Part shown: in pieces, positions 3,910 through 56,423 of the stretch
Layout of the letters: each line of letters starts with the position of its first letter
Numbering within the stretch: position 1 is the first letter of the stretch
NCBI GenBank assembly: GCA_041671325.1
Contig: JBAZBR010000004.1
Span: 4,004 to 68,003, forward strand
DNA from: Patescibacteria group bacterium
Lineage (GTDB): Bacteria > Patescibacteriota > Patescibacteriia > PEXW01
Direction of reading: 5' to 3'
Length of the DNA: 64,000 bases
The notes under the pieces: generated by a model
The model's database searches: none
Told to the model about the DNA's origin: nothing
The model's input: the letters and a program-made list of their open reading frames with translations, nothing else
Translations under genes and position numbers: made by a program

Positions 3910-4023
3910 GAGCGGGGCAGATAGTTGTGGTTTAAAGGTTTTGGGTATAAGCCTCCCCGCCTGCCTCCAGCTGATGCTCGGCAATGGCGGGCAGGTGTAT
4001 CGTTAGGGGGTGTGGTTTTTAAG

Positions 4024-4052
4024 TTGACAAGAACACAGGGGTTTTGTAAGCT
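4024..4052 (+). promoter_or_regulatory. Sigma70-like promoter TTGACA-17-TAAGCT
   Basis: Perfect -35 with exact 17-nt spacing, about 48 nt upstream of the GGAGG-preceded ATG at 4100. Confidence 0.5.
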
Positions 4053-4099
4053 GGTTTATTAAAATTAAAATCGAAAACCCTTTGATAAAGGAGGCAGAA

Positions 4100-4543
4100 A
4101 TGCCGAAGTGCAGCGAATGCAAAGATACCGGCGTAATCGAAACCGGAAATAATAGCCTGCCGTGTAATTGCGAAGCCGGTGAGGTCGCGCTGTTTAATGT
4201 GGCATGGGTTGATGGGCCGGTTACAGGCCAGGAAATGCGCAGGCATTTTTTAAACCCTTGCCCTGAGCCAATTTCTGCCGCCGCAACTAAAATTCCGGCA
4301 TCCGACTTGCCTGGTCGTCGGAGGCTCAAACCCTTTCATGAGTCAATAGTGGATGTGATTCAAAACGCCTTATGGTTTGAATTGCAGGGTTTGAGCAAAT
4401 TGCTTTTGGTTACTAAAATTCCAAAAAACCATGATGCCATTATTGAGGCGTGGACAAGGAGGGCCGGCGTAGAAAGGTATAAGCATGTAGTGGCAAGTCT
4501 ACGTCAGCAGAAGGCAATTGCCGAGCTAACCAACAAATCGTAA
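4100..4543 (+). CDS. Cys-rich hypothetical protein with a CxxCxDTG...CNC zinc-ribbon-like N-terminus
   Basis: Start taken at the ATG at 4100 after an AAGGAGG RBS (MPKCSECKDTG...). Confidence 0.5.
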   Translation: MPKCSECKDTGVIETGNNSLPCNCEAGEVALFNVAWVDGPVTGQEMRRHFLNPCPEPISAAATKIPASDLPGRRRLKPFHESIVDVIQNALWFELQGLSKLLLVTKIPKNHDAIIEAWTRRAGVERYKHVVASLRQQKAIAELTNKS

Positions 4544-4552
4544 ATTCCATAA

Positions 4553-4590
4553 TCAGGCGCCTGACCATTTGGTCTGGCGCCTTTTTTTAT
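4553..4590 (+). terminator. Rho-independent terminator (GGCGCC stem plus T7 tract)
   Basis: CAGGCGCCTGACCATTTGGTCTGGCGCC followed by TTTTTTTATTT. A near-identical module follows the gene ending at 5983. Confidence 0.55.
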
Positions 4591-4718
4591 TTGGTTGATT
4601 TGAACCTATATTTTGTTTGGTTTTTTTGTCAATCGGTTTTAGGCAATCCAATAGTTAAAAAACCCCCCAGACTCTTTTGGAGCTGGGGGAGTCAATATCA
4701 AGCCCGCAAATTTGGGCT

Positions 4719-5105
4719 TTACTTGACGACCGTGTCGATGACAATTTCGACCAGGGCGTTCTCGATGGGGAAACCGACCGCGAAGGTGGCGCGGACCGGT
4801 TTATCACAGCCTTCCAGCCAATTCAGGTAGACGGCATTGACGCTGGCAAAATCCTCTTTGTTGGCAAGCAGGATGGTCACCCTGAAAAGCCGGTCCTTGC
4901 TCGAGCCACAGTATTCGAGAATCGCGTCGGCATACTTGAAGATCTGTTCGGCTTGAGCGGCGGCGTCACCGTCAATGATCTGCTTTTCTCCGGGTTTGAA
5001 CGCTACCAATCCCGAAAGGCCCACTAGCTTATCTCCCGGTTCCAGGATGACTGCTTGGGGATAAGCCGCCGAAGTCGGGGCGTCGTCGGTTGAAAAGTAC
5101 CTCAT
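4719..5105 (-). CDS. RidA/YjgF/L-PSP family reactive-intermediate deaminase
   Basis: A 128-aa product with the YjgF-family pattern. The gene is noticeably GC-richer than its neighbours. Confidence 0.75.
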   Translation of the reverse strand: MRYFSTDDAPTSAAYPQAVILEPGDKLVGLSGLVAFKPGEKQIIDGDAAAQAEQIFKYADAILEYCGSSKDRLFRVTILLANKEDFASVNAVYLNWLEGCDKPVRATFAVGFPIENALVEIVIDTVVK

Positions 5106-5419
5106 TTCAGAATCCTCCTATACAGGATGTTTAAAGGTAAAGGGCTAAACTAGTTAAATCAAGATAGTTGGCTAATGTTAATCAGGTCAATATTTTTTGT
5201 CAAGCAATGTACTTATTAGTATTAACGATTATTTAATTAGTTAGTCTATTAACAATTCCATAAAAACCGTAAATCAGTACAGAGGCGTTTTTGGAATATA
5301 TTGCACAATACCAAGTCACGAAATACGGAGTTAATTTAGGAATACCGCATTTCTAAGTAGATTTTTCACCGGATATCAAGGAGTGGGAAAGGTAGGGTAT
5401 AACAAAATCTGTAAGATTA

Positions 5420-5448
5420 TTGACAATCCAATACAGAACAGATAAGTT
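5420..5448 (+). promoter_or_regulatory. Sigma70-like promoter TTGACA-17-TAAGTT
   Basis: Read directly at 5420-5448, upstream of the RBS and ATG at 5489. Confidence 0.5.
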
Positions 5449-5488
5449 TGGTGAAGTTCTTAATAAAATCAAAAACAAGGAGCCAAGC

Positions 5489-5983
5489 ATGTTTGGAAGA
5501 GGATTGAAAACGCCGAAAGGCATGGGTATTACTGCGCAAGCAGGAGATCTGGCACAACCAGATAAGCTGCCATTATCTCACGGTAATATGCTTGTAAAAG
5601 AAGCTTCGGAGACAACCCGTAAATATGCATGCGGTCACGAAGGACCCGAATGGTATGTTTTGGATGTCTATGGTCAAGAAACGGTCAAGATTGAGAAAAA
5701 AGACCTGTGCCCTGAATGTAAGATGGCAGATTACAAGAAATATGTAATTCGCTGTGCCGCCTGCGGTTTGCCAATTGCACCTGATCAAAGCGTCGCGCTT
5801 TATGCGAATAATACAGAATTCTTTGACCAGTCAATCGTAACTAAAGTAGGGGACAGTGTGATTGGTTGCATGCGATGGAATTGTTGTCCCTCAGGTGGAT
5901 TCTATGCGGGAAATTGGACAGAAGAGGGCTTCAAGTCTGCTTTTGATGGGGACACTGCTGCTGAGCAAGCCGCAACATCATAA
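5489..5983 (+). CDS. Cys-rich hypothetical protein (CPECK...CAACG zinc-ribbon-like)
   Basis: Start taken at the ATG at 5489 after an AAGGAG RBS. It is followed at 5993-6031 by a terminator almost identical to the one at 4553. Confidence 0.5.
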   Translation: MFGRGLKTPKGMGITAQAGDLAQPDKLPLSHGNMLVKEASETTRKYACGHEGPEWYVLDVYGQETVKIEKKDLCPECKMADYKKYVIRCAACGLPIAPDQSVALYANNTEFFDQSIVTKVGDSVIGCMRWNCCPSGGFYAGNWTEEGFKSAFDGDTAAEQAATS

Positions 5984-5992
5984 ATTTCATAA

Positions 5993-6031
5993 TCAGGCGC
6001 TTGACCACTTGGTCCGGCGCCTTTTCTTTTT
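5993..6031 (+). terminator. Rho-independent terminator, paralogous copy of the one at 4553
   Basis: CAGGCGCTTGACCACTTGGTCCGGCGCC followed by TTTTCTTTTT. Confidence 0.5.
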
Positions 6032-6039
6032 AAAACAAT

Positions 6040-6393
6040 TTATCCCGCGGCCTGGACCACGTTTTTGAAAACCGTGGAAAACAAAGTCCAGGAAACAATT
6101 ACCAAAAACATGCCAATGACTGCGCCGATAAGCAGTTTTCGGGAGTGCGTTTCCGAGTCTTCATTACCCCCAGCGGTAATCTTAACTATAATGCCGTAAA
6201 GGAGCATGACCGTTGAAACAACCCCGATTATGCCCAGAACCACGTTGGCAATACTGAAAAGGAAAGGCTTGATATCCAGCGTGTAAAGATTGGCTTGGGG
6301 CCCAATATTTTCCGTGGTAGTAGCCGCGACAATACGGGGCGATAAGTTGATTAATAAAGTAATTAAAAAGGGAAAGTATTTCTTTAGTTTCAT
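6040..6393 (-). CDS. VirB2/TrbC-like (type IV secretion-type) pilin family protein, divergent paralog
   Basis: Signal peptide, then two hydrophobic helices, with the AGGNED core shared with the next three genes. Confidence 0.45.
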   Translation of the reverse strand: MKLKKYFPFLITLLINLSPRIVAATTTENIGPQANLYTLDIKPFLFSIANVVLGIIGVVSTVMLLYGIIVKITAGGNEDSETHSRKLLIGAVIGMFLVIVSWTLFSTVFKNVVQAAG

Positions 6394-6459
6394 TTTTTAG
6401 ATAAAGCTTGGTTTACATAAAAAAGCCGTCAAAGTCGGTTTAGGCTTGAACAGAAAAAC

Positions 6460-6822
6460 TTAGTTAGTGACTTGGGCGGTCGTCTTTAGAACAAAGTTGA
6501 CGATTGCCCAAGAAAGCAGGACGACTATCAGGCCAACGACTGCCGAAGAGATCAGTCTTTTGGCCGTATCAGTTTTGTCCTCATTGCCGCCAGAAGTTGC
6601 CAAGGAAAAAACACCGTAAAGAATTACTACTAAGGCGATTAAACCCAATAAACCCAGAATAAAGCTAACAACATTCAAAATAGTTTGTTTCAGGTCTGTG
6701 GAAGTAAAACCCAGCGAGCCGGCAAAAGTCGTGTCAAAAGACACGGCCAAAGCCATGGCTGGCAGGGCTATAACGGTTAAGCTTATTAAGGTAGCAAAAA
6801 GGTATTTGTTAGGTTTTTTCAT
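6460..6822 (-). CDS. VirB2/TrbC-like pilin family protein (paralog 2)
   Basis: Signal peptide ending ...AMALA, then VSFDTTFAGSLGFTSTDLK, two TM helices and a GGNEDK motif. Confidence 0.5.
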   Translation of the reverse strand: MKKPNKYLFATLISLTVIALPAMALAVSFDTTFAGSLGFTSTDLKQTILNVVSFILGLLGLIALVVILYGVFSLATSGGNEDKTDTAKRLISSAVVGLIVVLLSWAIVNFVLKTTAQVTN

Positions 6823-7200
6823 TTATAATCCGCTTGGGCTCCCGGCTACTTGGTTGGCTGTTTTAAGCACAAAATTCACGATTGCCCAAGCCAGCAAGAC
6901 AATAACCAAACCAACTGAGGCTGAAGAAATTATCTGTTTGGCTTTGTCTACTTTGTCCTCATTGCCGCCTGCAGTCATCCAAATAAATCCAGCATAAAGA
7001 ATAAAGACAACGGCAATCAAGCCCAAGAGGCCTAAGACGAAGGTAATAACATTCAATACGGCCTGTTTTAAGTCTACCGAGGTAAAACCCAGCGAGCCGG
7101 CAAAAGTCGTGTCAAAAGACACGGCCATGGCAGCCATTGGCAAGGCTAGGCTAATTAATGACAAACCGAGAGCGGCAAGGTGTTTGTTAGTAAGTTTCAT
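6823..7200 (-). CDS. VirB2/TrbC-like pilin family protein (paralog 3)
   Basis: Same architecture. More than 70% identical to its neighbours in the VSFDTTFAGSLGFTS...LLAWAIVNFVLKT core. Confidence 0.5.
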   Translation of the reverse strand: MKLTNKHLAALGLSLISLALPMAAMAVSFDTTFAGSLGFTSVDLKQAVLNVITFVLGLLGLIAVVFILYAGFIWMTAGGNEDKVDKAKQIISSASVGLVIVLLAWAIVNFVLKTANQVAGSPSGL

Positions 7201-7305
7201 ATACCCTTATATTAACGCAATTTGCCGGAGAATTACAATAGCTATTACTAAAAACCCCCAGGTTTTAGCCGAAAGGGTTTTTAGTTTAATTAATAATTAT
7301 GTTAA

Positions 7306-7674
7306 TTAGGCGGTCACTTGATTGGTAGTCTTCAACACGAAGTTGACGATCGCCCAAGCCAGCAAAACCACAACTAAACCGATACAAGCTGAAGAAATGA
7401 TTTTCTTAGCTGAATCAACCTTATCTTCATTGCCACCCGCAGTCAGCCAGATAAAGCCACCGTAAAGAATCATGATAACCGCGATCAAGCCCAAGAGGCC
7501 TAATACAAAGGTAATCACGTTCAAAATCGTTGCCTTCAAATCAGTTGAAGTGAAGCCCAATGAACCGGCAAAAGTAGTATCAAAAGACACGGCTAAAGCC
7601 GCTATTGGTAAGGCCATTACACCCAGGGTTGCAGCGGTTGCAATTAAATATTTTTTGTTTAATTTCATAAACAC
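7306..7674 (-). CDS. VirB2/TrbC-like pilin family protein (paralog 4)
   Basis: Same architecture as the previous three genes. Confidence 0.5.
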   Translation of the reverse strand: MFMKLNKKYLIATAATLGVMALPIAALAVSFDTTFAGSLGFTSTDLKATILNVITFVLGLLGLIAVIMILYGGFIWLTAGGNEDKVDSAKKIISSACIGLVVVLLAWAIVNFVLKTTNQVTA

Positions 7675-7865
7675 ACCCCCTTTCCGATTTTTCGGTATAT
7701 TAGTCTAATCTAATTAAATCTTAGCTTATTTTGCTTAAAAGTCAAAGCTTTTAAACAGGTTATTGTACGCTTATTCAGAAAATAAATCAAGCCCCCAGGT
7801 TATTAGGGAAAAGTGGTAAAAAAATGAGTTTTTTGTCTTAACTTAGCTAAAAATTAGGATTTTAG

Positions 7866-8100
7866 GGTCCCCGTAAATCAGGCGCGCAAGCCCGCGAAAG
7901 CGGGATGAGCACGGATTTACGGGGAGAGGGGCACACTAATAGGGTCCCCACGAACGAGTAGCGGACCCCGCGGCCGCGGGGGAGTACGCATCTGCGGGGA
8001 GAGGGGCACTAAAAGGCTTTCTAAGAATAGGGGTCCCCATAAACGTGGCACGGAGCGGAGCGAGTACGCGTTTATGGGGAAAAGCGGCACATTTGTGGAG
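7866..8100. repeat. Three tandem ~77-88-nt hairpin units with conserved GGGTCCCC and GGGGAGAGGGGCAC flanks
   Basis: Unit stems are CCCCGTAAATC/GATTTACGGGG and CCCCATAAACG/CGTTTATGGGG; the middle unit is degenerate. The array lies in a divergent intergenic region, and the overlapping minus-strand ORF 7917-8114 looks spurious. Confidence 0.5.
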
Positions 8101-8324
8101 TCTGGAGTGGCCAAACGTTCAGTTTGGACACGAAAGGCGGAACAAATGTTGACGCGTGCGCCGTCGCGCCGTCGCGGTTTTATCGTGGATAACTCGGCCT
8201 TTTTTTGCCAAAACCTGTGTTAGCCTTAATTTAGTCAGTAAACAAACGCCATTCATTTCAATCCTGGAAAGGAGGTGAGTGGCATAACTAAAACCGTTCT
8301 TTTTAAACTGAAAGGAGAATCCAA

Positions 8325-9017
8325 ATGCAACGGATTCTTATTCTCGCCGGTTTGCTGCTCGCCTTGGTGTTGGCTGGGTGTAGTGAGCAGAGCGTCGCTC
8401 CAACTACGCAGGCCTCTGCTCAAGGTTTCTACTACGATGAAGTAGCTCAGACGTTGTTTCTGGATGGAAAAAGCATCGATCCAAGCGATGCGGCTATATG
8501 GTTGATTTCCAATCAGCCATCTAGCCAAGTTGTTCAAGAATTAGGAAAGATTCCTAATTCAATTCAAGAGCAGATTCTCAAAGCAGGAATGATCGCTATG
8601 GGGGTGAGTTCAGACACAGCAGCAGCTGTCCTAAAAGAACTATCTCTTCTGTTAGGACAAAAAGAGTCTTCCCAAGCAACTTCTGCCGCGGCTTGCCGGC
8701 AATTTATTGAATACCAGCCCTCCGCTGGTGCAACGGGCTGCAGAGGTTATTGGACGGATCCGTACTGTGATGGCGATCCTTCCGATAATGAGTACATTTT
8801 TGCATATTATCCGACCTGGTCGGATACGCCAGATGATGTGAGATGGTATACATACAATGCGTATGTGTACTATGCCTTGTGGGTGGCGTATCGTGCAAAT
8901 TTGCTTGCTCGTGATGCCTGTTCTCCGGGTGTATATCTTTGCATTGGCGATCGCGGCACCTGGCTCGCCGGCGGGCCAGTCGTTGTCAGTCTATATGTTC
9001 TTGTTGCTCATAACTGA
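8325..9017 (+). CDS. Lipoprotein (lipobox LAGC), Tyr/Trp/Cys-rich C-terminus
   Basis: MQRILILAGLLLALVLAGCSEQ signal peptide and lipobox, preceded by a GGAG RBS. Confidence 0.55.
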   Translation: MQRILILAGLLLALVLAGCSEQSVAPTTQASAQGFYYDEVAQTLFLDGKSIDPSDAAIWLISNQPSSQVVQELGKIPNSIQEQILKAGMIAMGVSSDTAAAVLKELSLLLGQKESSQATSAAACRQFIEYQPSAGATGCRGYWTDPYCDGDPSDNEYIFAYYPTWSDTPDDVRWYTYNAYVYYALWVAYRANLLARDACSPGVYLCIGDRGTWLAGGPVVVSLYVLVAHN

Positions 9018-9087
9018 AAAAAGAGGGGGAATGATTAATTGTCATTCTCCCTCATAAGTAAAAAATCTGTAAATCAATTTATTATTT

Positions 9088-9333
9088 ATGCTTAGGAAAT
9101 CTCAATTATCAAAAAGAATAATAATTTTAATCATAGTAGGGTACTATATTCTTGGTCTAGTTTTATTTTTAACCATCGGCAAGGATAGTCAGGCAGATTT
9201 TACAATGCAGCAAAGATTTGAAGAACTTCCCGGAAGTTTTCCAGAGTTGGCAATTTCTGGATTTTTTCAATACCTGATACTCCCCTTATTATGGCCAGCG
9301 CTTCTTATTTCAAAACTAATTATATTGTTATGA
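9088..9333 (+). CDS. Small membrane protein (hypothetical)
   Basis: Hydrophobic 81-aa ORF. Coding status is uncertain. Confidence 0.3.
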   Translation: MLRKSQLSKRIIILIIVGYYILGLVLFLTIGKDSQADFTMQQRFEELPGSFPELAISGFFQYLILPLLWPALLISKLIILL

Positions 9334-9611
9334 TCATCAAATTTCAGAATATCCTCAGACTTCTAAGCTTTGCGATTATCGGCGGTCTATGCTCCTTCGC
9401 TTTGAGTCTTTTTGGTTCACTGCTCTACCCCATGTCGATGTCGTCTTTATCTATTATTTCAATCGGCCTAAACATAACGGTTTGGCTGGGCATTATCCTT
9501 ACGGCAATATTCTTGAAGCAGCCCAAAAAAATCCCAGTACTTGTTTTTTTAATAGGTTTTATTTTTATTAGTCCATTTTTTTCGGGTTTAATTGTCACTT
9601 TAGGCGCTTAG
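9291..9611 (+). CDS. Small multi-TM membrane protein (hypothetical)
   Basis: A 106-aa hydrophobic ORF overlapping the previous one in another frame. Confidence 0.3.
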   Translation: MASASYFKTNYIVMIIKFQNILRLLSFAIIGGLCSFALSLFGSLLYPMSMSSLSIISIGLNITVWLGIILTAIFLKQPKKIPVLVFLIGFIFISPFFSGLIVTLGA

Positions 9612-9878
9612 TATTAAAAAAATAAAAAATGAAAAGGTGAGGTGAAAGTATTCGTGGAAAGAAAGGCCAAGAATGCACCTCACTAAAAGATTGAACCCAG
9701 TAACTGATTGTTCTTTAAAACTAAAGAAAGTGAGGTGATGTATTTGCCACACAAAGGCCTGGCATACCACAATGGGGGCTTTACTTAAGTAAAAAGGAGC
9801 TAAACCAGGAAACTTGTTGTCTTACTGACAAAACCTGAAAACTATTCCTCTATGTAGAGGGATAAAGGAGTAAAAAAC

Positions 9879-10688
9879 GTGAAAACTTCGAAAGTCTTGT
9901 CGATGATCGTTGCGATGTTATTCGTAGCCATAGGCACGCCCATGTACATGCAGGGCTGTTCCCAGAATGAAGGAACGTCAAACCTGCCAGCCAGGATTAC
10001 TGGTCCGGTGGACGCGGATTCTAATCTTGATGATGGGATTGGGACTGATGAAAACCAGACGCCAGATGTTGCTTATCGCTTATCTTCTGACCCAAGACAA
10101 GCGGTAAAACTAGAGTGTTTCTATGCCCTAAGCCAAGCCATTAATGGCTATTCTACGAAATCCATTAATGGCAATGCTGTGAGCAATTGGAATTTTATGG
10201 CCAACGACTTGAACGCTTACAACGTCATGAAGTCGCGCTATGGTTCCAATGCTTCTGTTTGGGGTTTGTATTACTCCAACCCAGCTTCGTATGGCTGTTA
10301 TGGTGGTTATGGCCGCGGCGGGCAGTGCGTACATTTCGTGAATTTGATTTTATATCGCAGTAGCGTTTATCAAGGTACGCTTCCGTCGTATGCTACCTGC
10401 CTGGCCAACTATAACAGCAGCCGTAGCTACACCAAGCCGTTCCGCCAACTCCGGGTGGGCGACATAATTCGCTCGTATAGCGCAAACGGCCATACGGCAA
10501 TTGTCGTAGCTATTTTAGCCGGAGTAGAAGGGTCGTCAGTGACATCCGTTGATGTAATTGATGCCAATTTTGTCGGCGGCATGGGTAACGAGATTATTGC
10601 CAGGCATATAATTTCCACGTCCGGATCGGGATATGGCGACCTGGATAATTATTATGCCGTCGATCTTATTGCTCTGGGTGGCCGTTAA
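9879..10688 (+). CDS. Secreted CHAP-domain peptidoglycan hydrolase (amidase/peptidase)
   Basis: Signal peptide, then GQCVHFVN (catalytic Cys) and NGHTAIVVA (catalytic His), both typical of the CHAP domain. Confidence 0.6.
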   Translation: MKTSKVLSMIVAMLFVAIGTPMYMQGCSQNEGTSNLPARITGPVDADSNLDDGIGTDENQTPDVAYRLSSDPRQAVKLECFYALSQAINGYSTKSINGNAVSNWNFMANDLNAYNVMKSRYGSNASVWGLYYSNPASYGCYGGYGRGGQCVHFVNLILYRSSVYQGTLPSYATCLANYNSSRSYTKPFRQLRVGDIIRSYSANGHTAIVVAILAGVEGSSVTSVDVIDANFVGGMGNEIIARHIISTSGSGYGDLDNYYAVDLIALGGR

Positions 10689-10767
10689 TCACTTTGCTTT
10701 GCCAAAAATGTCTGGGGAAAAGCATTCATGCTTTTCCCCAGATGGCTAATTCATTTTAATATCAATT

Positions 10768-11355
10768 TTGTCTTTCAAATATCGAAAATTTATGAAAAAT
10801 AAGCAACTCTTCTCAATTATTATCCCTGTAGTAGTCATTATATTAGCTATAGGTATTTATAAAGTTGCATCGATTTCAAAAAATTCTGACAATGAATCAA
10901 ACAGAACTAATGTCAGCAATGCGAATACCATTATTTATAAAACCGTAACTCTAGTTAATAGTAAGTATAGCTTTCAAATTCCCCAAGGTTATATTGCTTG
11001 TGAAAATTTTAATAAGCAAAATGTAAACGCAGCCTTAATTGCCTATGTCTGGTCGGATGGGACGTGTGATCATACCCAAGACGCTCCAGAAATTCAAGTG
11101 TTTGCTTATGCCAAGAATAATTTAAACCCCGAAAAATTTTTACGACAACGAGCAAGCGAAGGGTTTATGGATTTAAATCAGGATGCATTTAATCTTGAAA
11201 GCTTGAATGTCGGCACGCGGACAATAACTCAGATTTCAGTATCCAGGACAGAAACCTTTATTGCGGTTTTACCCTTGAATAGTAATTATTTTTTTGTGGC
11301 GACCCAATCACAATTAATAGGAGAAGCTAAAAAAATATTAGAGACCATTACTTAA
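10768..11355 (+). CDS. Membrane-anchored hypothetical protein
   Basis: N-terminal TM helix LFSIIIPVVVIILAIGIY. No recognised domain. Confidence 0.4.
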   Translation: MSFKYRKFMKNKQLFSIIIPVVVIILAIGIYKVASISKNSDNESNRTNVSNANTIIYKTVTLVNSKYSFQIPQGYIACENFNKQNVNAALIAYVWSDGTCDHTQDAPEIQVFAYAKNNLNPEKFLRQRASEGFMDLNQDAFNLESLNVGTRTITQISVSRTETFIAVLPLNSNYFFVATQSQLIGEAKKILETIT

Positions 11356-45328: not shown

Positions 45329-45403
45329 GTCCCCATAGCTTAACGGATAAAGCGTAGGCCTCCGAAGCCTGAGATTGAGGTTCAATTCCTCATGGGGGCA
45401 CCA
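45329..45403 (+). tRNA. tRNA-Arg (anticodon CCG), with encoded CCA
   Basis: Hand-folded: acceptor GTCCCCA/TGGGGGC, D-arm GCTT-AACGGATA-AAGC, anticodon stem TAGGC/GCCTG with loop CTCCGAA (CCG), T-arm TGAGG-TTCAATT-CCTCA, then A-CCA. Confidence 0.8.
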
Positions 45404-45475
45404 GCTCGTTTCGTGCTTCACCCTGCGTGAGCGCGCTTTTCGCTTGCTCACTTCAGGTTACGCACGAAGCCTCGC
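45404..45475 (+). ncRNA. Conserved structured element immediately 3' of a tRNA (copy 2 of 2)
   Basis: GCTCGTTTCGTGCTTCACCCTGCGTGAGCGCGCTTTTCGCTTGCTCAC...GCACGAAGCCTCGC has the same nested stems as the copy at 1130-1200. A terminator-like hairpin follows at 45549-45585 (CCCCAATTTTTTATTAAAAAATTGGGG). Confidence 0.4.
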
Positions 45476-45690
45476 ATTCCCGACAAACCCGTACTCGCTC
45501 CGCTGCGTTCCTGGTTTGTCGGGTCAGGTTTCACAAACGTGTCGCTTACCCCAATTTTTTATTAAAAAATTGGGGCCCCCCGGGTTTTAGTTTGCTTTTT
45601 TATCCTTAAAGAGAGAAAATAAAAAGGCACACCCTTAAACAAATAAGGGTTTAAAGCATTACAAAATCTCAATAATTAACCAAAATAATT

Positions 45691-46485
45691 ATGAGCAAAA
45701 AAACTATATTAATAAGAAGCGTATTTTTAATCGCTCTGGCCTTTGTCGTTACTGGCTGCAGCAAAAAAACCACCAACACCAACACCACGAATACCAACAC
45801 CAATGTGGTGGTGACTGAAGCGCCCTTTGTCATGAATGGCAGTACCAAGGTCTTCAGCCTTAAATTGGTCAATGGGTTATTCAATTATAAAACCATGACT
45901 TTTTACGCTGGCGACAATGTGGAAGTCCGGTTGACCAGCAATAACCAGCCAGTTGATTTTAAATTCCAAAATGTACCAGCCACTTCAACCAACGGCATCT
46001 TCCGTACCATTATCCAGGATGATGACAAGGGCGGAACCTATTTGCTGGTTTGTTCGAACCAAGAGTGCGGTAGCATCACCTTAACGGTTATTCCAAAAAC
46101 CAACACTAATACCACGAATGGCAACACCAATCAAGCCGCTAATACCAATACCTCGCCTAACCAAATCACCAAAGTTGAATTGCAACGCATCCCGGCTGGC
46201 ACAACCTTTAGTCCCAATAATACCTATGAAACTACGACCAGTTTCAATGTCGGCGATCAATTCGGCTTGAGCGTTACTGGGGAATTTAAACTCGGTACCA
46301 CTTTAGCCCACACCTTCACCAATAGTGCCGGCAAAGAAATTGAAGCACAGTCTAAGCATCAAAACTTACAGCCTGGCACGAACGGCTCTTGCTGTTTCAG
46401 TCTGCCCACTACCGCTGGTTCGTATAACCTCAAACTTTATGTGGATGGTAAGGCTGCCCAGAGCGTGCCGATTACTTTGAAATAA
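45691..46485 (+). CDS. Lipoprotein with TNTN low-complexity linkers (hypothetical)
   Basis: Signal peptide with lipobox VTGC, and repeated TNTNTTNTNTN tracts. Confidence 0.5.
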   Translation: MSKKTILIRSVFLIALAFVVTGCSKKTTNTNTTNTNTNVVVTEAPFVMNGSTKVFSLKLVNGLFNYKTMTFYAGDNVEVRLTSNNQPVDFKFQNVPATSTNGIFRTIIQDDDKGGTYLLVCSNQECGSITLTVIPKTNTNTTNGNTNQAANTNTSPNQITKVELQRIPAGTTFSPNNTYETTTSFNVGDQFGLSVTGEFKLGTTLAHTFTNSAGKEIEAQSKHQNLQPGTNGSCCFSLPTTAGSYNLKLYVDGKAAQSVPITLK

Positions 46486-46609
46486 TAAATTTCAGGACAA
46501 TATTAAAACACCTCAAGGCAAAGTCTTGGTAGTCCCGTAAGAAATATAAGTATAAAAAACAACCCCGCTGGTTTTTGCGGGATTGTTTTTCAAATTGATT
46601 TTTAATTTT

Positions 46610-47737
46610 TTACCAAAGCGGAACCCATAAATCTTCAATGATATCAACAAAGAGACTTCCAGTGTCATTGAAATACGAACCCGGCAGGTCGTAAATTAAC
46701 AAACCTAGAGGGTTGCCTGTTCCTGCATAAGGTATCTGGTAAGTATTTAGGGTATTATAGGCACCCCAATTTACAAACCCATTGTCCACCTTGAGGTCAA
46801 GGAGATCGGTTCCGTATGTGTCATACGGTGCTGCGACCCCATCAACCCAGTTTGTCCCATCTGAAGTGCTGTAATCGGCATCAAAATTAATGACGCAACC
46901 AGGCTGGTTGCATGCATAAGCCGTGCCGTACGCCTTCAGGAAATAATTCTTGCCTAATCCAAGCGTGTTATCGCTAAAAGTCGGCGTTGCTTGGCTTGCC
47001 AGGACTTCGACAGTCTCTACGAATGTCGGGCCGACATGATATGTACCCCGATGCCAATCTTCAAGAATGCTTTTTGAAACGCCAAACTTGTAATGTCCGC
47101 CAAAATCCAAACCGGTTTTTTCTTTCATAATATCCAAAATCTGGATCGCACTGCAGCCATAGGTGTATTCCATAGTCACCCAGGCTGTATTAGTAACCAT
47201 AGTTCTTGGTGTTTTCGTAATCCACCTAGAGCCGTCCCACATGTAGCGGTTAGTGCCTAAACTTTCGGTTAGATGATCCGCATCCGTACCAGGACATTTA
47301 TCAGCGTCCCCATAAATCCCGTCATGGTCATCTGGCGTCGCTGTGCCGGTCATGTACCAAGCCCAAGGAACATTGCCACTGATATGGCCGGTGCCATCGA
47401 TTGTTCCGGAAACGGTAACAGTGTATCCAGGGTTATACGGACCAGCATAAGTTGTGGTTAAAGAAATATTGTTTCCATCAACGTAACCGGTTATGGTTTC
47501 CGTAGTCTGGCCAGGCAAATTATATGGCGCACTGCCAGCCGGATATCCGGCGGTTCCCGTAAAGGTTCCGTCAGAGAGCTGGTTGGTAATGGTTACATCA
47601 TGATGGTAAGAACCCAAAACCACCCATTCGTATGTTCCAGTCACATCCCAATTGGGGCTGTAAGCGCTGGATGGGATAGGCAAACAAAACAAAAACAATA
47701 TTGCCCCCGTAGCAATACCTGAAATTATTTTTTTCAT
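46610..47737 (-). CDS. Secreted hypothetical protein (375 aa)
   Basis: N-terminal signal peptide, Gly/Tyr/Trp-rich. No motif recognised. Confidence 0.5.
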   Translation of the reverse strand: MKKIISGIATGAILFLFCLPIPSSAYSPNWDVTGTYEWVVLGSYHHDVTITNQLSDGTFTGTAGYPAGSAPYNLPGQTTETITGYVDGNNISLTTTYAGPYNPGYTVTVSGTIDGTGHISGNVPWAWYMTGTATPDDHDGIYGDADKCPGTDADHLTESLGTNRYMWDGSRWITKTPRTMVTNTAWVTMEYTYGCSAIQILDIMKEKTGLDFGGHYKFGVSKSILEDWHRGTYHVGPTFVETVEVLASQATPTFSDNTLGLGKNYFLKAYGTAYACNQPGCVINFDADYSTSDGTNWVDGVAAPYDTYGTDLLDLKVDNGFVNWGAYNTLNTYQIPYAGTGNPLGLLIYDLPGSYFNDTGSLFVDIIEDLWVPLW

Positions 47738-47917
47738 TTTTTCACCCCCTTCCTTTATATAAAGGCTATATAAAAGCTGTTAAGCCATTGTAACAGGGGT
47801 TTAAACGTTTAACAATAAGCTTTTCTAAAGGGTAAAGAAAAACGATTTTTATTTGATTTTCTGGGATGAAAGAGGGAGAATGGGATTATCAAGCTTGATT
47901 ATTAATATTGTCAATAT

Positions 47918-48298
47918 ATGGACAAAAAAACCTATTTCAAAATCTTCGGCTATGGCCTGCAATTGTTCGTGGTGGTCATGCTTTTGATCTTTGCAATGTC
48001 TGCCATTACCAACTCTGACCAAATTGATCATTGGTGGGAAGGCGTGGTTATTGCCATCTTAATGGCCGGTTGCTCTTGGTTATATTCCTTGCGCTTAAAG
48101 CCAACCACCACCAAAGAGAAATTAACCTACGGCATTACCTGGGCAATAATGATAGCCGTAATTATTTTGATTATTACTATTCCCAACAAAACCACCGGCA
48201 TAGTCTTTGGAAGTTGGAGCGCGTATTTGATATTTCTGGGCGTGGCAGTGGGGCCGATAGTAGGGAATTATAAATCTGTAACTCCGAAAATTGGGTAA
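47918..48298 (+). CDS. Multi-TM membrane protein (hypothetical)
   Basis: Four hydrophobic helices. A terminator hairpin follows at 48340-48382. Confidence 0.4.
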   Translation: MDKKTYFKIFGYGLQLFVVVMLLIFAMSAITNSDQIDHWWEGVVIAILMAGCSWLYSLRLKPTTTKEKLTYGITWAIMIAVIILIITIPNKTTGIVFGSWSAYLIFLGVAVGPIVGNYKSVTPKIG

Positions 48299-48401
48299 GT
48301 GTGGGGCGTGAACACAACGCTATTTAAGATATAAGAAAGAGCGCCTGCAAGGTTTTTATCCCTGAACAGGCGCTTTTTGGATTTGATACGAATCGGCAGG
48401 G

Positions 48402-48548
48402 TTATGGCCGGGATTTCCCAGTTAGATTATTCCATTGGGGCCAGCTGCCATTGGCCATTCTGCCGCCTACGCAACGACACCAACCGGTGAATTGGCCGTG
48501 CTTGTCATATTCGTATTCATAACCACCTTGCACAAACCAGCCTTTCAT
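48402..48548 (-). CDS. Small Trp/Gly/Tyr/Cys-rich protein (48 aa), absent from the ORF track
   Basis: On the minus strand, a GGAGGT RBS lies 6 nt before the ATG. It encodes MKGWFVQGGYEYEYDKHGQFTGWCRCVGGRMANGSWPQWNNLTGKSRP and is driven by a consensus TTGACA-17-TATATT promoter. Confidence 0.35.
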   Translation of the reverse strand: MKGWFVQGGYEYEYDKHGQFTGWCRCVGGRMANGSWPQWNNLTGKSRP

Positions 48549-48594
48549 TTCGCTACCTCCTTCGATGCGTTTTTTTAGATTTTTATATTCAAGG

Positions 48595-48624
48595 GAATAT
48601 ATGCCAATTTTGTTTATTTGTCAA
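48595..48624 (-). promoter_or_regulatory. Near-consensus sigma70 promoter (TTGACA-17-TATATT), copy A of a duplicated ~50-bp promoter module
   Basis: Read on the minus strand. It is almost identical to copy B at 49354-49384. Confidence 0.55.
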
Positions 48625-48907
48625 GCCTAAGCGGACTTGCCATTTTAGTTCAGCAACGACGGCAACAAGCACCTAAAATTTATTAGCCAACCTAAAAAGG
48701 ACTGTCCTTGCGGAGCAGTCCTTTTTGATATGAATATTTTACTTTAACTGGCGGCATTATTAATAGTACTCATTAGGATCAAATGGTTTTTTCCAGTAGC
48801 AGAGAACCCGGTGTGAGCCAGTTCTTTATGGCATTCGTAAATAAAAAAAGGTCCGGGGGTTAATTCCCAGACCATAGAGATTTTAGTGCATAACGGCGCG
48901 TGTTCTA

Positions 48908-49282
48908 TTAACGGCGTGCCGCTTCTGCGCGCAACTCACGGATGGCTTGCTCTTCGGTAAGGTACACATCTACTATTCCCTTGGGATTAAAATTCTGCCT
49001 ATACTCAAGGTACCGCCTCGTGTTGTCTCCGGCGCTGATCGCCAGCCTATGTTTACGACTGGCTAACCGCTTATGGATCTCGAGGATCGCTTTGAAAATG
49101 TCCGGTCCTATCGTCCGGATCTGACTACAATCCAGGAGGTGCAGGGATTCTTTGCTAGGCACGCCGAAGTGCCTTTTCAGTTTCGCGGCGTACTGTGTTT
49201 CCGGCGTCTTGACGTCATTTGCAAGGGTATAACGCCGGATCCCTCCCTCGAGTACTTTTGTGGTAACCAGCTTTTTACTCAT
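48908..49282 (-). CDS. STAS-domain (anti-sigma-factor antagonist-like) protein
   Basis: LHLLDCSQIRTIGPDIFKAILEI...HRLAISAG...VYLTEEQAI matches the SpoIIAA/STAS pattern. GGAGG RBS. Confidence 0.45.
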   Translation of the reverse strand: MSKKLVTTKVLEGGIRRYTLANDVKTPETQYAAKLKRHFGVPSKESLHLLDCSQIRTIGPDIFKAILEIHKRLASRKHRLAISAGDNTRRYLEYRQNFNPKGIVDVYLTEEQAIRELRAEAARR

Positions 49283-49353
49283 GATACGTCCTCCGTATAA
49301 AGGTTCTATGTCAGTGCCTAATTATCCTAACTATTGCGTTTTTTGCATTCAGG

Positions 49354-49384
49354 GAAATTTATGCCAATTTTGTTTATTTGTCAA
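49354..49384 (-). promoter_or_regulatory. Sigma70 promoter (TTGACA-17-TAAATT), copy B of the duplicated promoter module
   Basis: Read on the minus strand, driving the STAS-like gene. Confidence 0.5.
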
Positions 49385-49422
49385 ATTTAAGCGGTTGAAC
49401 ATTCCCTCAAAAAGGCGTACTT

Positions 49423-49941
49423 TTGGGGTATATGTTTGACCAATTCCTTTATTACGAAATCCAAAAATCCAAACCCTGGTGGATGTATTTGATCATCGCG
49501 CCGTTGTTTGTCTTTTCCGTCTGGAGCTTTGTCCAGCAGATAATTTTTAATAAGCCGTTTGGCAGTGATCCCGCGCCAGACTGGGGCGTCTGGCTGATTT
49601 TAATTATTTGCGGCATTGGCCTGCCTTGGTTATTTTTGCAAAGCAAGCAAATCATCAAGTTTGACGGGAAAACCATTTCCGCCTCCTATGTCCCGTTTTG
49701 GAAAACCACCTTCGCCCTGGACCAGGTTGAAAAATTTTACCCGCGGGATTTTAATCCCATGCGCGATTTCTGGGGCTGGGGCATCCGCTATGGCCTAAAG
49801 AAAGGTTCAAAGTGGGTCATGGCCTATGTGTATTTTAATGAAAATAGGGGAGTCCAATTCGAACTTAAAAACGGCCGCCGCATCCTGATTGGCAGTAGGA
49901 AGACTGAGCAGTTTTTGGAGGTGCTGAACCGAAAAATTTAA
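49423..49941 (+). CDS. Membrane protein with bacterial PH-like (YdbT/DUF304-like) C-terminal region
   Basis: Two N-terminal TM helices, then FDGKTISASYVPFWKTTFALDQVEKF. Confidence 0.4.
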   Translation: MGYMFDQFLYYEIQKSKPWWMYLIIAPLFVFSVWSFVQQIIFNKPFGSDPAPDWGVWLILIICGIGLPWLFLQSKQIIKFDGKTISASYVPFWKTTFALDQVEKFYPRDFNPMRDFWGWGIRYGLKKGSKWVMAYVYFNENRGVQFELKNGRRILIGSRKTEQFLEVLNRKI

Positions 49942-49967
49942 TAAAAAAATTATTTTTTAAAAAACCT

Positions 49968-51719: not shown

Positions 51720-51853
51720 TTTAAAGATTATAATTGCCTCGTCCCTTTCGACTCCTTGCCATGACAATAATAAATAACCCGTCATTGCGAGCCCCCGCTT
51801 TTTGGCGGGGGGGGTGTGGCAATCTTTAACTATAGTAAACTAACATCCATACT

Positions 51854-52219
51854 ATGAAAAAATTTCTCTATTGGGCGCCGCGAATTTTAAGCATTGTAAT
51901 GGTGTGTTTTATCTCCATCTTCGCTCTGGATGTGTTTGATCAGAGTTATACTTTTTGGGAATTGGTGCTCGCGCTCTTCATGCACCTTTTGCCCTCAATC
52001 GTAGCGGTCATTATAATCATTATCGCCTGGAAAAGGGAGCAAATCGGCGGCTGGCTTTTCATTGCATTGGGTATGGGATTTGTGTTTATCGGCAGGTTTG
52101 AACTGATGGCGATTTTAATTGTCACCCTTCCGATCATCATCATTGGTGCGCTGTTTTTATTGCACTATTATAAATATGTAAAAGGGGCGAAAGATTCTGG
52201 AGGCGTTGGGGAAAGTTAA
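51854..52219 (+). CDS. Multi-TM membrane protein (hypothetical)
   Basis: Four TM helices. Confidence 0.4.
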   Translation: MKKFLYWAPRILSIVMVCFISIFALDVFDQSYTFWELVLALFMHLLPSIVAVIIIIIAWKREQIGGWLFIALGMGFVFIGRFELMAILIVTLPIIIIGALFLLHYYKYVKGAKDSGGVGES

Positions 52220-52498
52220 CTAATAGGAGGTAAGTTTTTAGTTTCTTGATTGTTCCCTTATAAAATATGGGGATTTTGAGTTATCCACAACATTCTTTGC
52301 TTTTTTTATTAATATATTAAATTAAGGTTTTTTATGAATGGTATATAGAAACGAATAATATGCAATAAATACAGGAGATATATGATGATAATTAGAGTAT
52401 TTACTCATATATGAACTGTTAATCATGCCGATTTGACAATAAAAATGACATATGATAGATTAAACCGTGCTATGAATTATAATTAACAACCAACAACT

Positions 52499-52894
52499 AT
52501 GAACGAAAACAACCCACTCAATAGACTATTGGTGAGCGATTCCCAAGATGTTAATAAAGAAGAGTTGGCAAATTTGCTTGAACCGTACGTTTTTATCAAT
52601 AAAGATTCGAAATCTTTTGATTTTTCATCCAAGTTTCACGGACTTCCCACTCATGCCGATAGAATTCTTATTATTTTTGCAGCAGTGAAGGCAAGGCATA
52701 TAATTTTACAAACGGAAGATAGAATTACGCCCTCTGAAATTATCAAAATGGAGGTTGCGGCTGAAGGCAGCATAAAAGGTACATTAAAAAGGCTTTCTGA
52801 CGATGGTGAGATAAAAGCAGATAAAGGTAAGTATTATCTACCAAATTATAAAATTCCAAAGCTTGTTGAGCATTTTAAATCTTTTAATAAGTAG
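52499..52894 (+). CDS. Small wHTH-like protein, paralog 1 of 3 in an AT-rich island
   Basis: The C-terminal KGTLKRLSDDGEIKADKGKYYLPNYK resembles a winged-helix wing. It is a paralog of the next two genes. Confidence 0.4.
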   Translation: MNENNPLNRLLVSDSQDVNKEELANLLEPYVFINKDSKSFDFSSKFHGLPTHADRILIIFAAVKARHIILQTEDRITPSEIIKMEVAAEGSIKGTLKRLSDDGEIKADKGKYYLPNYKIPKLVEHFKSFNK

Positions 52895-52899
52895 ATATT

Positions 52900-53304: not shown

Positions 53305-53305
53305 T

Positions 53306-54443: not shown

Positions 54444-54584
54444 AACCAGCTTGGTAAAATGAATAATAATCCCAACTCCATAAGGAGTCTATTATTTTTT
54501 GTTTATTTTTAATTTGGATTATACTTCAATTACCCACTTCATCATGCTTATTAATTAATTTTTAACCCTTAACCAAAAACCCAT

Positions 54585-55067: not shown

Positions 55068-55073
55068 AAACAT

Positions 55074-55256: not shown

Positions 55257-55298
55257 AGCTTGTCGTTGGTAGAAATTTATATAATTAGCGCTTGATTC

Positions 55299-55931: not shown

Positions 55932-55960
55932 GGCAGGAATGGACTTAGAATTAATTTATT

Positions 55961-56395: not shown

Positions 56396-56423
56396 GATTT
56401 TGTAAAAATAGATAAAAACATTC

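What the first reader, a model, noticed from the sequence alone, without database searches (positions are those of the whole stretch)
6040..7674. Tandem array of four VirB2/TrbC-like pilin paralogs
Four consecutive minus-strand genes of 117-125 aa encode proteins with a signal peptide, the shared core VSFDTTFAGSLGFTS(T/V)DLK..ILNV..F.LGLLGLIA and two hydrophobic helices with an AGGNEDK motif between them. This matches conjugative (type IV secretion) pilin architecture and pilin-like families noted in CPR genomes. The three proximal copies are 70-80% identical while 6040-6393 is divergent, consistent with birth-and-death diversification of a surface-exposed structure. No VirB4/VirB6/VirD4 genes are present in this window, so the machinery that would use these pilins lies elsewhere or the proteins have another role.
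Basis: partly seen in the sequence, partly recalled or inferred. Interest (0 to 1): 0.5.

Follow-up and report, generated by a model that had tools for sequence, protein, structure and literature searches.

The report
VirB2-like pilin gene array, Patescibacteria

Summary
Four minus-strand ORFs (6040-6393, 6460-6822, 6823-7200, 7306-7668) each encode a signal peptide and a two-helix hairpin with a GGNED loop. All four score above the Pfam gathering cut-off for PF18895 T4SS_pilin. A profile of the subfamily aligns with genuine Agrobacterium-type VirB2/TrbC pilins (hhalign 90.8%, E 1.2e-6). The exact proteins are already in GenBank from a Patescibacteria MAG, two of them named "pilin".

Tandem VirB2-like arrays in Patescibacteria are published: 441 arrays of 2-11 genes, and an essential array in Southlakia. 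No T4SS gene lies in the window, in 14 kb of extra flank, or within 10 kb of any of about 85 related loci. A published table lists VirB4 in 7 of the 9 Kerfeldbacteria assemblies I read.

Two corrections. The three similar copies are 67.5-75.8% identical and are old duplicates under purifying selection. Their exposed N-terminal 19 residues are kept nearly identical, which argues against surface diversification among them.

The array occupies a conserved chromosomal site holding 1-4 copies in relatives. It descends from the major pilin of a separate operon (solute-binding protein, pilins, DUF2079, glycosyltransferases). Verdict: new member of a known kind, low interest.

The parts
7306..7668 (-). 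It is 'major pilin'-type. Its ortholog is C4546_04685 of the SURF_31 MAG (84% identity). It is 85% identical to the major pilin of the canonical pilin operon on another contig of the same MAG.
   Evidence: PF18895 53.2 bits. Identical to GenBank MFA6588297.1, 'MAG: pilin'. Tree and identities. Shine-Dalgarno GGAAAGGGGG upstream of the ATG.
6823..7200 (-). Pilin copy 3 (125 aa, with a 5-residue longer C-terminal tail, SPSGL). It has no ortholog in the 3-copy array of the closest relative, so it is either a lineage-specific gain or a loss in that relative.
   Evidence: PF18895 48.3 bits. GenBank MFA6588298.1, 'pilin'. Neighbour-joining tree.
6460..6822 (-). Pilin copy 2 (120 aa). Its ATG directly abuts the TAA stop of copy 3 (TAAATG), which suggests translational coupling.
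   Evidence: PF18895 44.4 bits. Sequence. GenBank MFA6588299.1, WCT08_04465, 'hypothetical protein'.
6040..6393 (-). Pilin copy 1 (117 aa), divergent at about 30% identity to the others. It has the same architecture (signal peptide, two helices, AGGNEDS loop), no obvious Shine-Dalgarno sequence, and evolves fast (44% identity to its SURF_31 ortholog).
   Evidence: PF18895 30.9 bits, above the 26.6 cut-off. Identities. GenBank MFA6588300.1, WCT08_04470.
7718..7790 (-). Two tandem sigma-70-like promoter matches upstream of copy 4: TTGATT-17-TACAAT and TTGACT-16-TAAGAT. The second is almost identical to the sequence upstream of the SURF_31 array.
   Evidence: Pattern scan (5 promoter-like sites found against 3.6 expected, so the scan alone is weak). 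Conservation TTGACTTTTAAGCAAAAT.AG.TA.G.TTT read directly.
7255..7275 (-). Terminator-like hairpin with a T-run in the 105-bp gap after copy 4. It may attenuate read-through into copies 3 to 1. This is inferred.
   Evidence: Pattern scan (11 terminator-like sites found against 3.7 expected in shuffles). Sequence.

Best explanation
The locus is a satellite array of four paralogous genes for VirB2-like pilins (Pfam PF18895) in the chromosome of a Patescibacteria MAG. Its relatives are Kerfeldbacteria-type genomes, which the literature assigns to class ABY1.

Proposed mechanism. Each precursor is exported by the Sec pathway and cut by signal peptidase I after an invariant P-x-x-(A/V)-x-A motif. 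The roughly 94-residue mature protein sits in the membrane as a two-helix hairpin, with the N- and C-termini outside and the GGNED(K) loop inside. By analogy with other VirB2 pilins, and with the essential pilin array of the Saccharibacterium Southlakia epibionticum, the subunits are extracted from the membrane. A VirB4-powered, monoderm-type T4SS encoded elsewhere in the genome then polymerises them into a pilus or conduit used for contact with a host cell.

Origin. The array arose by duplication of the major pilin gene of a separate canonical operon, found on another contig of the same MAG. It has since gained and lost copies at a fixed chromosomal site next to ssb, greA, an LTD/PKD surface-protein gene and a response-regulator gene.

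Shown here: family membership, architecture, the cleavage motif, purifying selection, the paralogy/orthology pattern, synteny and copy-number variation.

Inferred: the precise membrane orientation (termini out, loop in), assembly by a T4SS, filament formation, co-expression, and the role in host interaction.
For: Family membership:
- All four proteins exceed the PF18895 gathering score.
- The subfamily profile matches genuine MPF_T VirB2/TrbC. The alignment runs from the peptidase site through helix 1 (hhalign probability 90.8%, E 1.2e-6).
- 6 of 43 subfamily members hit PF04956.
- There are sub-threshold but significant hits to the Mycoplasma ICE pilin-like family NF045849 (E 4e-10 to 1e-6).

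Processing and architecture:
- Pro at -6 and Ala at -1 occur in 43 of 43 homologues, and A/V/T/S at -3 in 43 of 43.
- The AlphaFold2 model is a helical hairpin with mean pLDDT 77.6.

Selection and history:
- Synonymous sites are saturated while the protein is kept.
- A syntenic site holds 3, 2 and 1 copies in three other genomes.
- A neighbour-joining tree places copy 4 next to the canonical-operon major pilins.
- A second array lies on a 145-kb contig whose proteins have GenBank accessions interleaved with those of the window in two MAG versions.

Literature:
- VirB4 was found in 2,417 of 3,035 Patescibacteria assemblies.
- VirB2-like pilins were found in 1,948 of those assemblies, but near virB4 in only 1,135.
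- 441 pilin arrays were reported (PMC12102498).
- 7 of the 9 Kerfeldbacteria assemblies listed in the part of Table S1 that I read have VirB4.
- The predicted pilin subunits within the T4SS cluster of S. epibionticum are essential (PMC10633639; PMC12857230).
Against: - No T4SS gene was found in the 64-kb window, in about 14 kb of extra contig flank, in the 20 kb read around the second array, or within 10 kb of any of about 85 related loci.
- The presence of VirB4 in this MAG was not established.
- The window proteins do not hit PF04956 directly.
- Fold searches cannot discriminate a helical hairpin.
- No solved structure is found by sequence.
- No pilus has been seen for any PF18895 protein of Patescibacteria in the papers I read. 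There the subunits are called 'predicted', and the systems are credited only with a 'potential to elaborate conjugative pili'.
Confidence: 0.6

Rival explanations
1. The proteins are T4SS-independent envelope proteins. In this clade the PF18895 hairpin would serve as a subunit or membrane anchor of a surface structure. That structure would be made or modified by the genes that actually sit next to it: a solute-binding protein, DUF2079 and PMT_2/GT-C glycosyltransferases, and a sugar nucleotidyltransferase. The window array would supply extra copies of that subunit.
For: - Among about 85 related loci, the recurrent neighbours are SBP_bac_8 (41 loci), NTP_transferase (38), PMT_2-type transferases (35) and DUF2079 (31). 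None has a VirB4-like ATPase within 10 kb.
- The same hairpin forms the N-terminus of proteins of 1,877-3,442 aa and up to 3,722 aa. That looks like a membrane anchor for giant surface proteins.
- The mature N-terminus is rich in Ser and Thr.
Against: - Homology to VirB2 is supported.
- In Saccharibacteria the pilin array lies inside the T4SS cluster and is essential.
- Most Kerfeldbacteria assemblies listed have VirB4.
- Scattered T4SS genes are normal in reduced genomes.
- Gene adjacency to glycosyltransferases does not show an assembly role.
- The window array itself lacks those neighbours.
Confidence: 0.15
2. The paralogs are interchangeable alternative major pilins, used for surface variation or to match different host strains, as proposed for virB2 arrays of Anaplasma and Bartonella.
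For: - There are multiple paralogs and copy number varies between relatives.
- The C-terminal tails differ: TTNQVTA, TANQVAGSPSGL and TTAQVTN.
- Copy 1 evolves fast (44% identity between orthologs, against 84% for copy 4).
- The literature suggests this for Patescibacteria arrays.
Against: - The exposed N-terminal 19 residues of copies 2-4 are kept nearly identical by selection. 12 of 19 codons differ synonymously between copy 4 and the other two.
- Overall dN is low (0.18-0.27) against saturated synonymous sites.
- I saw no invertible promoter, silent cassettes or recombination repeats in 5,960-8,340. The only conversion-like tract is 39 nt shared by copies 2 and 3.
Confidence: 0.15
3. The genes have a division of labour within one filament. 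Copy 4 would be the abundant major subunit, and copies 3-1 would be low-abundance minor pilins for initiation, the tip or the base. This is a refinement of the best explanation, not an exclusive alternative.
For: - Copy 4 is promoter-proximal and has the strongest Shine-Dalgarno sequence.
- It is followed by a terminator-like hairpin.
- Copy 4 has the highest family score and the slowest evolution.
- The canonical operon in relatives shows a fixed order: a large pilin-domain protein, a small divergent pilin, then the major pilin(s).
Against: - Promoter and terminator calls are consensus matches only.
- There are no expression data.
- Copies 2 and 3 are still 68-76% identical to copy 4, closer than minor pilins usually are to the major subunit.
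Confidence: 0.3

Closest known systems
VirB2-like pilin arrays of Patescibacteria (Pfam PF18895 T4SS_pilin): the essential pilin series in the Southlakia epibionticum T4SS cluster and the 441 arrays catalogued by Quinonero-Coronel et al. 2025
   Same: Same Pfam family, same phylum, and the same tandem arrangement of 2-11 small genes with a signal peptide and a two-helix hairpin.
   Different: - This array is not in or near a T4SS cluster.
- Three copies are 67.5-75.8% identical, whereas that survey reports a mean of 25% and a maximum of 54% within arrays.
- In my sample of related loci, high in-array identity is common: 21 of 51 arrays exceed 54%, with a maximum of 97%. The difference therefore reflects the clade or the sampling rather than this locus.
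VirB2/TrbC pilins of Gram-negative MPF_T systems (Pfam PF04956), such as Agrobacterium VirB2
   Same: - A long signal peptide ending in P-A-x-A, then a short exposed N-terminus.
- A helix with the N-I-x-x-F/W-x-L-G-x-x-G motif, a short loop and a second hydrophobic helix.
- The profile-profile match has probability 90.8%.
   Different: - The window proteins give no direct PF04956 hit.
- The loop is acidic or mixed (GGNEDK).
- The host is a monoderm.
- There is no adjacent virB1, virB3 or virB4, unlike the plasmid loci.
- Head-to-tail cyclisation is not testable here.
Scattered virB2 paralog arrays of obligate intracellular Rickettsiales and of Bartonella (known from the literature; cited in PMC12102498 and PMC2653234)
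   Same: Tandem amplification of the pilin gene in a reduced, host-dependent genome, with T4SS genes dispersed in the chromosome rather than in one operon.
   Different: These are different phyla and diderm T4SSs. In those cases surface variation is proposed, whereas here the exposed N-terminus of three copies is conserved.
NCBIfam NF045849, Mbov_0395 family pilin-like conjugal transfer protein of Mycoplasma ICEs
   Same: A small two-helix protein of a monoderm conjugation module. All four window proteins hit it with E values of 4e-10 to 1e-6.
   Different: Scores of 28.3-39.3 bits are below the equivalog cut-off of 40, so the proteins are not members. No ICE context is present.

Membership tests
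Pfam PF18895 T4SS_pilin | Whole-protein HMM score at or above the curated gathering cut-off (26.6 bits) | tested here: met
   Scores are 30.9, 44.4, 48.3 and 53.2 bits for the four proteins. All 43 aligned homologues also match.
Pfam PF04956 TrbC/VirB2 pilin | Direct HMM match of the protein to the TrbC/VirB2 model | tested here: not met
   None of the four window proteins matches at E <= 1. Only 6 of 43 subfamily relatives match (best E 1.7e-6).
VirB2/TrbC superfamily (remote homology) | Profile-profile similarity to experimentally anchored VirB2/TrbC proteins | tested here: met
   hhalign of the subfamily alignment A2 against eight annotated MPF_T VirB2/TrbC proteins gave probability 90.8% and E 1.2e-6. 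The 51 aligned columns run from the peptidase site through helix 1. The match covers only part of the protein, so this is moderate support.
VirB2-type pilin | Cleavable Sec signal peptide with a signal peptidase I site | tested here: met
   The n-region is MK..KK and is followed by a hydrophobic h-region. Pro at -6 and Ala at -1 occur in 43 of 43 homologues, and A/V/T/S at -3 in 43 of 43. This is a motif inspection; no dedicated predictor was run.
VirB2-type pilin | Mature protein is a hairpin of two hydrophobic helices joined by a short polar loop | tested here: met
   Hydropathy segments. The AlphaFold2 model shows H41-76, a turn at 77-80 and H81-119, with pLDDT 84-92 over the hairpin.
VirB2-type pilin | Fold-level match to solved pilin structures | tested here: inconclusive
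T4SS gene cluster | Genetic linkage to VirB4 or other T4SS components | tested here: not met
   None was found in the window or in 14 kb of extra flank. None was found within 10 kb of about 85 related loci.
T4SS (functional dependence) | A VirB4 ATPase encoded in the same genome | not testable with these tools
   Only about 78 kb of the 158-kb contig and 20 kb of a second contig of the MAG could be read. From the literature, 80% of Patescibacteria assemblies have VirB4, as do 7 of the 9 Kerfeldbacteria assemblies listed in the part of Table S1 read.
NCBIfam NF045849 Mbov_0395 pilin-like conjugal transfer protein | Score at or above the equivalog cut-off (40 bits) | tested here: not met
   Scores are 28.3-39.3 bits.
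Conjugative pilin | Polymerisation into an extracellular filament; post-translational cyclisation or acetylation | not testable with these tools
   This requires microscopy or mass spectrometry.

The most novel reading that the evidence does not exclude
In ABY1-type Patescibacteria the PF18895 'pilin' hairpin is not a T4SS part. Instead it would be the subunit and membrane anchor of a separate surface structure. That structure would be built or glycosylated by the conserved operon of solute-binding protein, pilins, DUF2079 and GT-C glycosyltransferases, and the same module would carry giant (2-3.7 kaa) surface proteins. The window array would then be a reservoir of extra subunits for that structure.
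Probability: 0.12. Interest if true: 0.7.

Novelty: new member of a known kind. Interest (0 to 1): 0.2.

Why it matters
Patescibacteria depend on host cells. In the one species tested genetically, the T4SS and its pilin genes are essential, yet their function is unknown. This locus adds one more well-delimited pilin array, this time from a Kerfeldbacteria-type (class ABY1) lineage. It shows that such arrays can sit far from any T4SS gene. It also shows that they can be old duplicates kept under purifying selection with an invariant exposed N-terminus, and that they can be traced to the major pilin gene of a conserved operon. None of this changes current understanding. The more useful lead is the side observation that the family's conserved neighbours in this clade are glycosyltransferase and solute-binding genes rather than T4SS genes.

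Tried and rejected
- Sequence-profile search of PDB chains. Only chance-level membrane-protein hits (E > 0.6).
- Hunt for T4SS genes. I ran Pfam on 40 ORFs of at least 150 aa from the window, Pfam and NCBIfam on unannotated neighbours, and read the contig beyond both window ends. I also screened Walker-A motifs in all ORFs of at least 400 aa in the related loci, then ran Pfam on the candidates. They were DnaB, an ABC transporter, ClpB, ChlI, BipA, AcrB and surface proteins. No VirB4 or VirD4 was found.
- VirB4 seed. I could not obtain a Patescibacteria VirB4 seed sequence with the available tools, so the rest of the MAG could not be queried.
- Source genome. It is not among the species representatives of genome contigs; the best hit is the SURF_31 MAG at 81%.
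- Gene conversion as the cause of the identical N-terminal segment. Rejected for copy 4 against copies 2 and 3, where 12 of 19 codons differ. A 39-nt identical tract remains possible between copies 2 and 3.
- Pseudogenes or chance ORFs. Rejected on family scores, conservation and low dN.
- Rfam search of the upstream region. No match at E <= 1.
- The ORFs at 52499-53710, three consecutive genes of about 130 aa, were checked as a possible second pilin-like array. They are soluble, charged proteins and do not match the pilin HMM.
Full report
**1. The observation**

Listing ORFs in 4,000-10,000 shows four consecutive minus-strand ORFs at 6040-6393 (117 aa), 6460-6822 (120 aa), 6823-7200 (125 aa) and 7306-7674 (122 aa). 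The last one starts at a GTG. The ATG two codons downstream (7668) is preceded by GGAAAGGGGG and is the start of the identical GenBank protein of 120 aa.

The gaps between the genes are 105 bp, 0 bp (TAAATG) and 66 bp. Alignment confirms the shared VSFDTTFAGSLGFTS(T/V)DLK segment, the LGLLGLIA helix and the (A/S)GGNED(K/S) loop. Global identities among the three proximal copies are 67.5%, 72.5% and 75.8%. The distal copy is about 30% identical to each. Each protein has an N-terminal hydrophobic segment and two long hydrophobic segments.

**2. What the proteins are**

All four exceed the curated cut-off of Pfam PF18895 "Type IV secretion system pilin": 30.9, 44.4, 48.3 and 53.2 bits against 26.6. 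None hits PF04956 (TrbC/VirB2) at E <= 1. All hit NCBIfam NF045849, the Mycoplasma ICE pilin-like conjugal transfer protein, with E values of 4e-10 to 1e-6, but below its 40-bit cut-off.

To test the VirB2 link directly, I aligned 43 members of the subfamily (A2). I also aligned eight annotated VirB2/TrbC proteins from MPF_T plasmids, fetched from PLSDB (A3). hhalign gives 90.8% probability and E 1.2e-6. It aligns the P-A-x-A peptidase site, the short exposed N-terminus and the N-I-x-x-F/W-x-L-G-x-x-G helix. Six of the 43 subfamily members also match PF04956 on their own (best E 1.7e-6).

In the 43-sequence alignment, Pro at -6 and Ala at -1 are invariant, and position -3 is always A, V, T or S. 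That is a signal peptidase I site. AlphaFold2 with this alignment gives a signal helix at 5-27 and a hairpin of H41-76, a turn at 77-80 (GGNE) and H81-119, with mean pLDDT 77.6.

The family is very large. A full HMMER scan gives 69,940 cluster representatives at E <= 1e-3 and 19,649 at E <= 1e-10.

**3. Where it comes from**

The four proteins are exact matches to GenBank entries MFA6588297-MFA6588300 (a twin MAG carries MFA6953878-881), labelled "Patescibacteria group bacterium". Two are named "pilin" and two "hypothetical protein" (WCT08_04465 and WCT08_04470). The source contig is 158 kb, and the window is positions 3,932-67,931 of it.

The rest of the window is ordinary chromosome. It carries three NUDIX genes, a RidA-like gene, SSB, GreA, PolA, holA, UvrB, RuvA, FemAB, PRPP synthase and large secreted proteins (LTD/PKD, alpha-2-macroglobulin, FG-GAP).

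The closest homologues come from Parcubacteria, Kerfeldbacteria, Uhrbacteria, Magasanikbacteria and Buchananbacteria MAGs. The published survey assigns Kerfeldbacteria and Magasanikbacteria to class ABY1.

**4. T4SS machinery**

No VirB4, VirD4, VirB6 or other T4SS family was detected in any of the following:
- the 40 window ORFs of at least 150 aa that were scanned with Pfam;
- the unannotated neighbours;
- the 2.7 kb and 8.6 kb of contig read beyond the window ends.

I fetched 80 related loci from species-representative genomes with 10-kb flanks and added those from exact-protein look-ups. A Walker-A screen of all ORFs of at least 400 aa, followed by Pfam, found only DnaB, an ABC transporter, ClpB, ChlI, BipA, AcrB and similar proteins. 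In this clade the subfamily is therefore consistently not next to a T4SS ATPase.

I could not query the remainder of the MAG. The literature gives the prior:
- VirB4 is present in 2,417 of 3,035 Patescibacteria assemblies.
- VirB2-like pilins were detected in 1,948 VirB4-containing assemblies, and lie near virB4 in only 1,135 of them (PMC12102498).
- In the part of its Table S1 that I read, 7 of 9 Kerfeldbacteria assemblies are VirB4-positive.

**5. History of the array**

The same chromosomal site (ssb, greA, LTD/PKD protein, response regulator) carries three pilin genes in the SURF_31 MAG (L002), two in L013 and one in L014.

A distance tree pairs copy 4 with SURF_31 gene 1 (84% identity), copy 2 with gene 2 (66%) and copy 1 with gene 3 (44%). 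Copy 3 has no partner. The sister group of copy 4 and its ortholog is the major pilin of a different, widely conserved operon. In the same MAG that operon lies on a 145-kb contig (L005: P0004, 85% identical to copy 4). Its GenBank accessions, MFA6588432 and MFA6954168, fall within the same runs as the window's proteins. Assigning both contigs to one genome is an inference from accession numbering and from the shared sample.

The window array is therefore a satellite derived from the canonical major pilin, with later gain or loss of copies.

**6. Selection**

Between copy 4 and copies 2 and 3, synonymous sites are saturated (pS 0.74-0.77) while dN is about 0.2. Between copies 2 and 3, dS is 1.2 and dN/dS is 0.23. 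These are old duplicates under purifying selection.

The mature N-terminal 19 residues would be exposed on a VirB2-type filament. This placement rests on established knowledge of F- and T-pilus structures, not on a test here. These residues are identical in copies 2 and 4 and differ at one residue in copy 3. Yet 12 of 19 codons differ synonymously between copy 4 and the others.

Differences concentrate in the signal peptide, the helices and the C-terminal tail. This contradicts diversification of the exposed part for these three copies. Copy 1 and its ortholog do evolve fast. Copies 2 and 3 share a 39-nt identical tract at the start of the mature region, which may be a short conversion tract.

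**7. Expression signals**

These are weak evidence.
- Two sigma-70-like matches lie upstream of copy 4 (7790-7762 and 7745-7718). A terminator-like hairpin follows copy 4 (7275-7255).
- The second promoter sequence is nearly identical upstream of the SURF_31 array.
- Copy 2 starts at the stop codon of copy 3.
- This layout fits an abundant first product and less abundant downstream ones, but there are no expression data.

**8. Comparison with what is known**

Tandem arrays of VirB2-like pilins in Patescibacteria are published. There are 441 arrays of 2-11 genes in 383 assemblies (PMC12102498). [quoted passage not shown]

That survey reports a within-array identity averaging 25% with a maximum of 54%. 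Here three copies are at 68-76%. In my sample of related loci, however, 21 of 51 arrays exceed 54% and the maximum is 97%. High identity is therefore common for this subfamily and is not special to this locus.

The finding is a correct identification of a new member of a known kind.

**9. The most novel reading not excluded**

The conserved neighbours of this subfamily are a solute-binding protein, a sugar nucleotidyltransferase, DUF2079 and PMT_2/GT-C transferases. The hairpin also forms the N-terminus of giant proteins. I found no paper in the held library that links DUF2079 with pilins.

A T4SS-independent surface structure is conceivable. I rate it at about 0.12, given the VirB2 homology and the Saccharibacteria precedent.

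Noticed in passing
window 7863-8095, extending to about 8200; also L013 9371-9440 and L101 2140-2330: Upstream of the array lie three tandem 77-80-nt repeats. Each folds into a long hairpin with 12-nt perfect arms (TCCCCRTAAAY...RTTTAYGGGGA). The RNA fold z-score is -5.1, and the motif is not expected by chance in the window (0 in 100 shuffles). A near-identical unit sits upstream of the syntenic array in L013. A roughly 170-nt stretch (the third hairpin, a 28-nt-arm hairpin and a GC-rich terminator-like palindrome) is highly conserved, by eye in the alignment, in an unrelated metagenome contig without pilin genes (L101). This may be a small RNA gene on the plus strand or a mobile intergenic repeat. 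There is no Rfam match.
   Followed up: partly
window about 8150-8200; L002 9790-9835; L013 9259-9305; L101 about 2270-2320: The box AGCGCCGTCGCGACGGCGCTGTTTTATCGTGGATAACTCGGCC is conserved with only a few substitutions. It is a GC palindrome with a T-run followed by a DnaA-box-like TGTGGATAA/TTATCCACG. It occurs in four genomes, between the pilin array and the divergent lipoprotein gene in three of them. Its function is unknown.
   Followed up: partly
L005 8754-10363 (same MAG, contig k141_712465); also L004, L006, L011, L012 and about 35 further loci: A second pilin cluster has a fixed order: NTP_transferase, SBP_bac_8, a large pilin-domain protein (270-660 aa), a small divergent pilin, and 1-3 canonical pilins. 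These are followed by DUF2079 and several PMT_2/GT-C glycosyltransferases. Neighbour counts among about 85 loci are SBP 41, NTP_transferase 38, PMT_2-type 35 and DUF2079 31. I found no paper in the held library linking DUF2079 and pilins.
   Followed up: partly
L031 534-10478; L044 9899-20227; L048 9899-19402; L049 9887-18079; L052 9866-17983; L083 8116-18336; L068, L037, L062: ORFs of 1,877-3,442 aa begin with a PF18895-type pilin domain. The full-library scan shows more, up to 3,722 aa (for example P0266 and P0247). They look like giant surface proteins anchored by, or presented on, the pilin module.
   Followed up: no
proteins P0123-P0134 and others: Predicted proteins contain 2-17 tandem pilin domains; for example, P0134 is 1,775 aa with 17 matched stretches. 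They are either real polypilins or arrays fused by gene calling, for instance under a wrong genetic code.
   Followed up: no
L014, L015, L023, L025, L028 and about 20 other loci: Many GenBank TPA MAG records titled 'uncultured Gammaproteobacteria bacterium' carry pilin loci of the same subfamily as the Patescibacteria MAGs. At least one (L014) also shows the ssb and LTD/PKD synteny. The organism labels look wrong.
   Followed up: no
window 8325-11355: The divergent neighbours of the array are a lipoprotein-like protein (8325-9017), two small multi-helix membrane proteins (9088-9333 and 9291-9611) and a secreted protein with a sub-threshold CHAP amidase hit (9879-10688; 22.9 bits against a cut-off of 26). 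The last two have homologues at the same place in SURF_31 (36-50% identity). A VirB1-like wall hydrolase role is conceivable but unsupported.
   Followed up: partly
window 45329-57539: After tRNA-Arg (45329-45403) comes about 12 kb of mostly family-less ORFs with uneven GC content (0.335 at 52-54 kb, 0.498 at 50-52 kb). It includes three consecutive soluble proteins of about 130 aa (52499-53710), a faint Y1 transposase hit (55299-55931) and a 583-aa protein with an N-terminal membrane helix (49968-51719). This may be an integrated element or a variable island.
   Followed up: no
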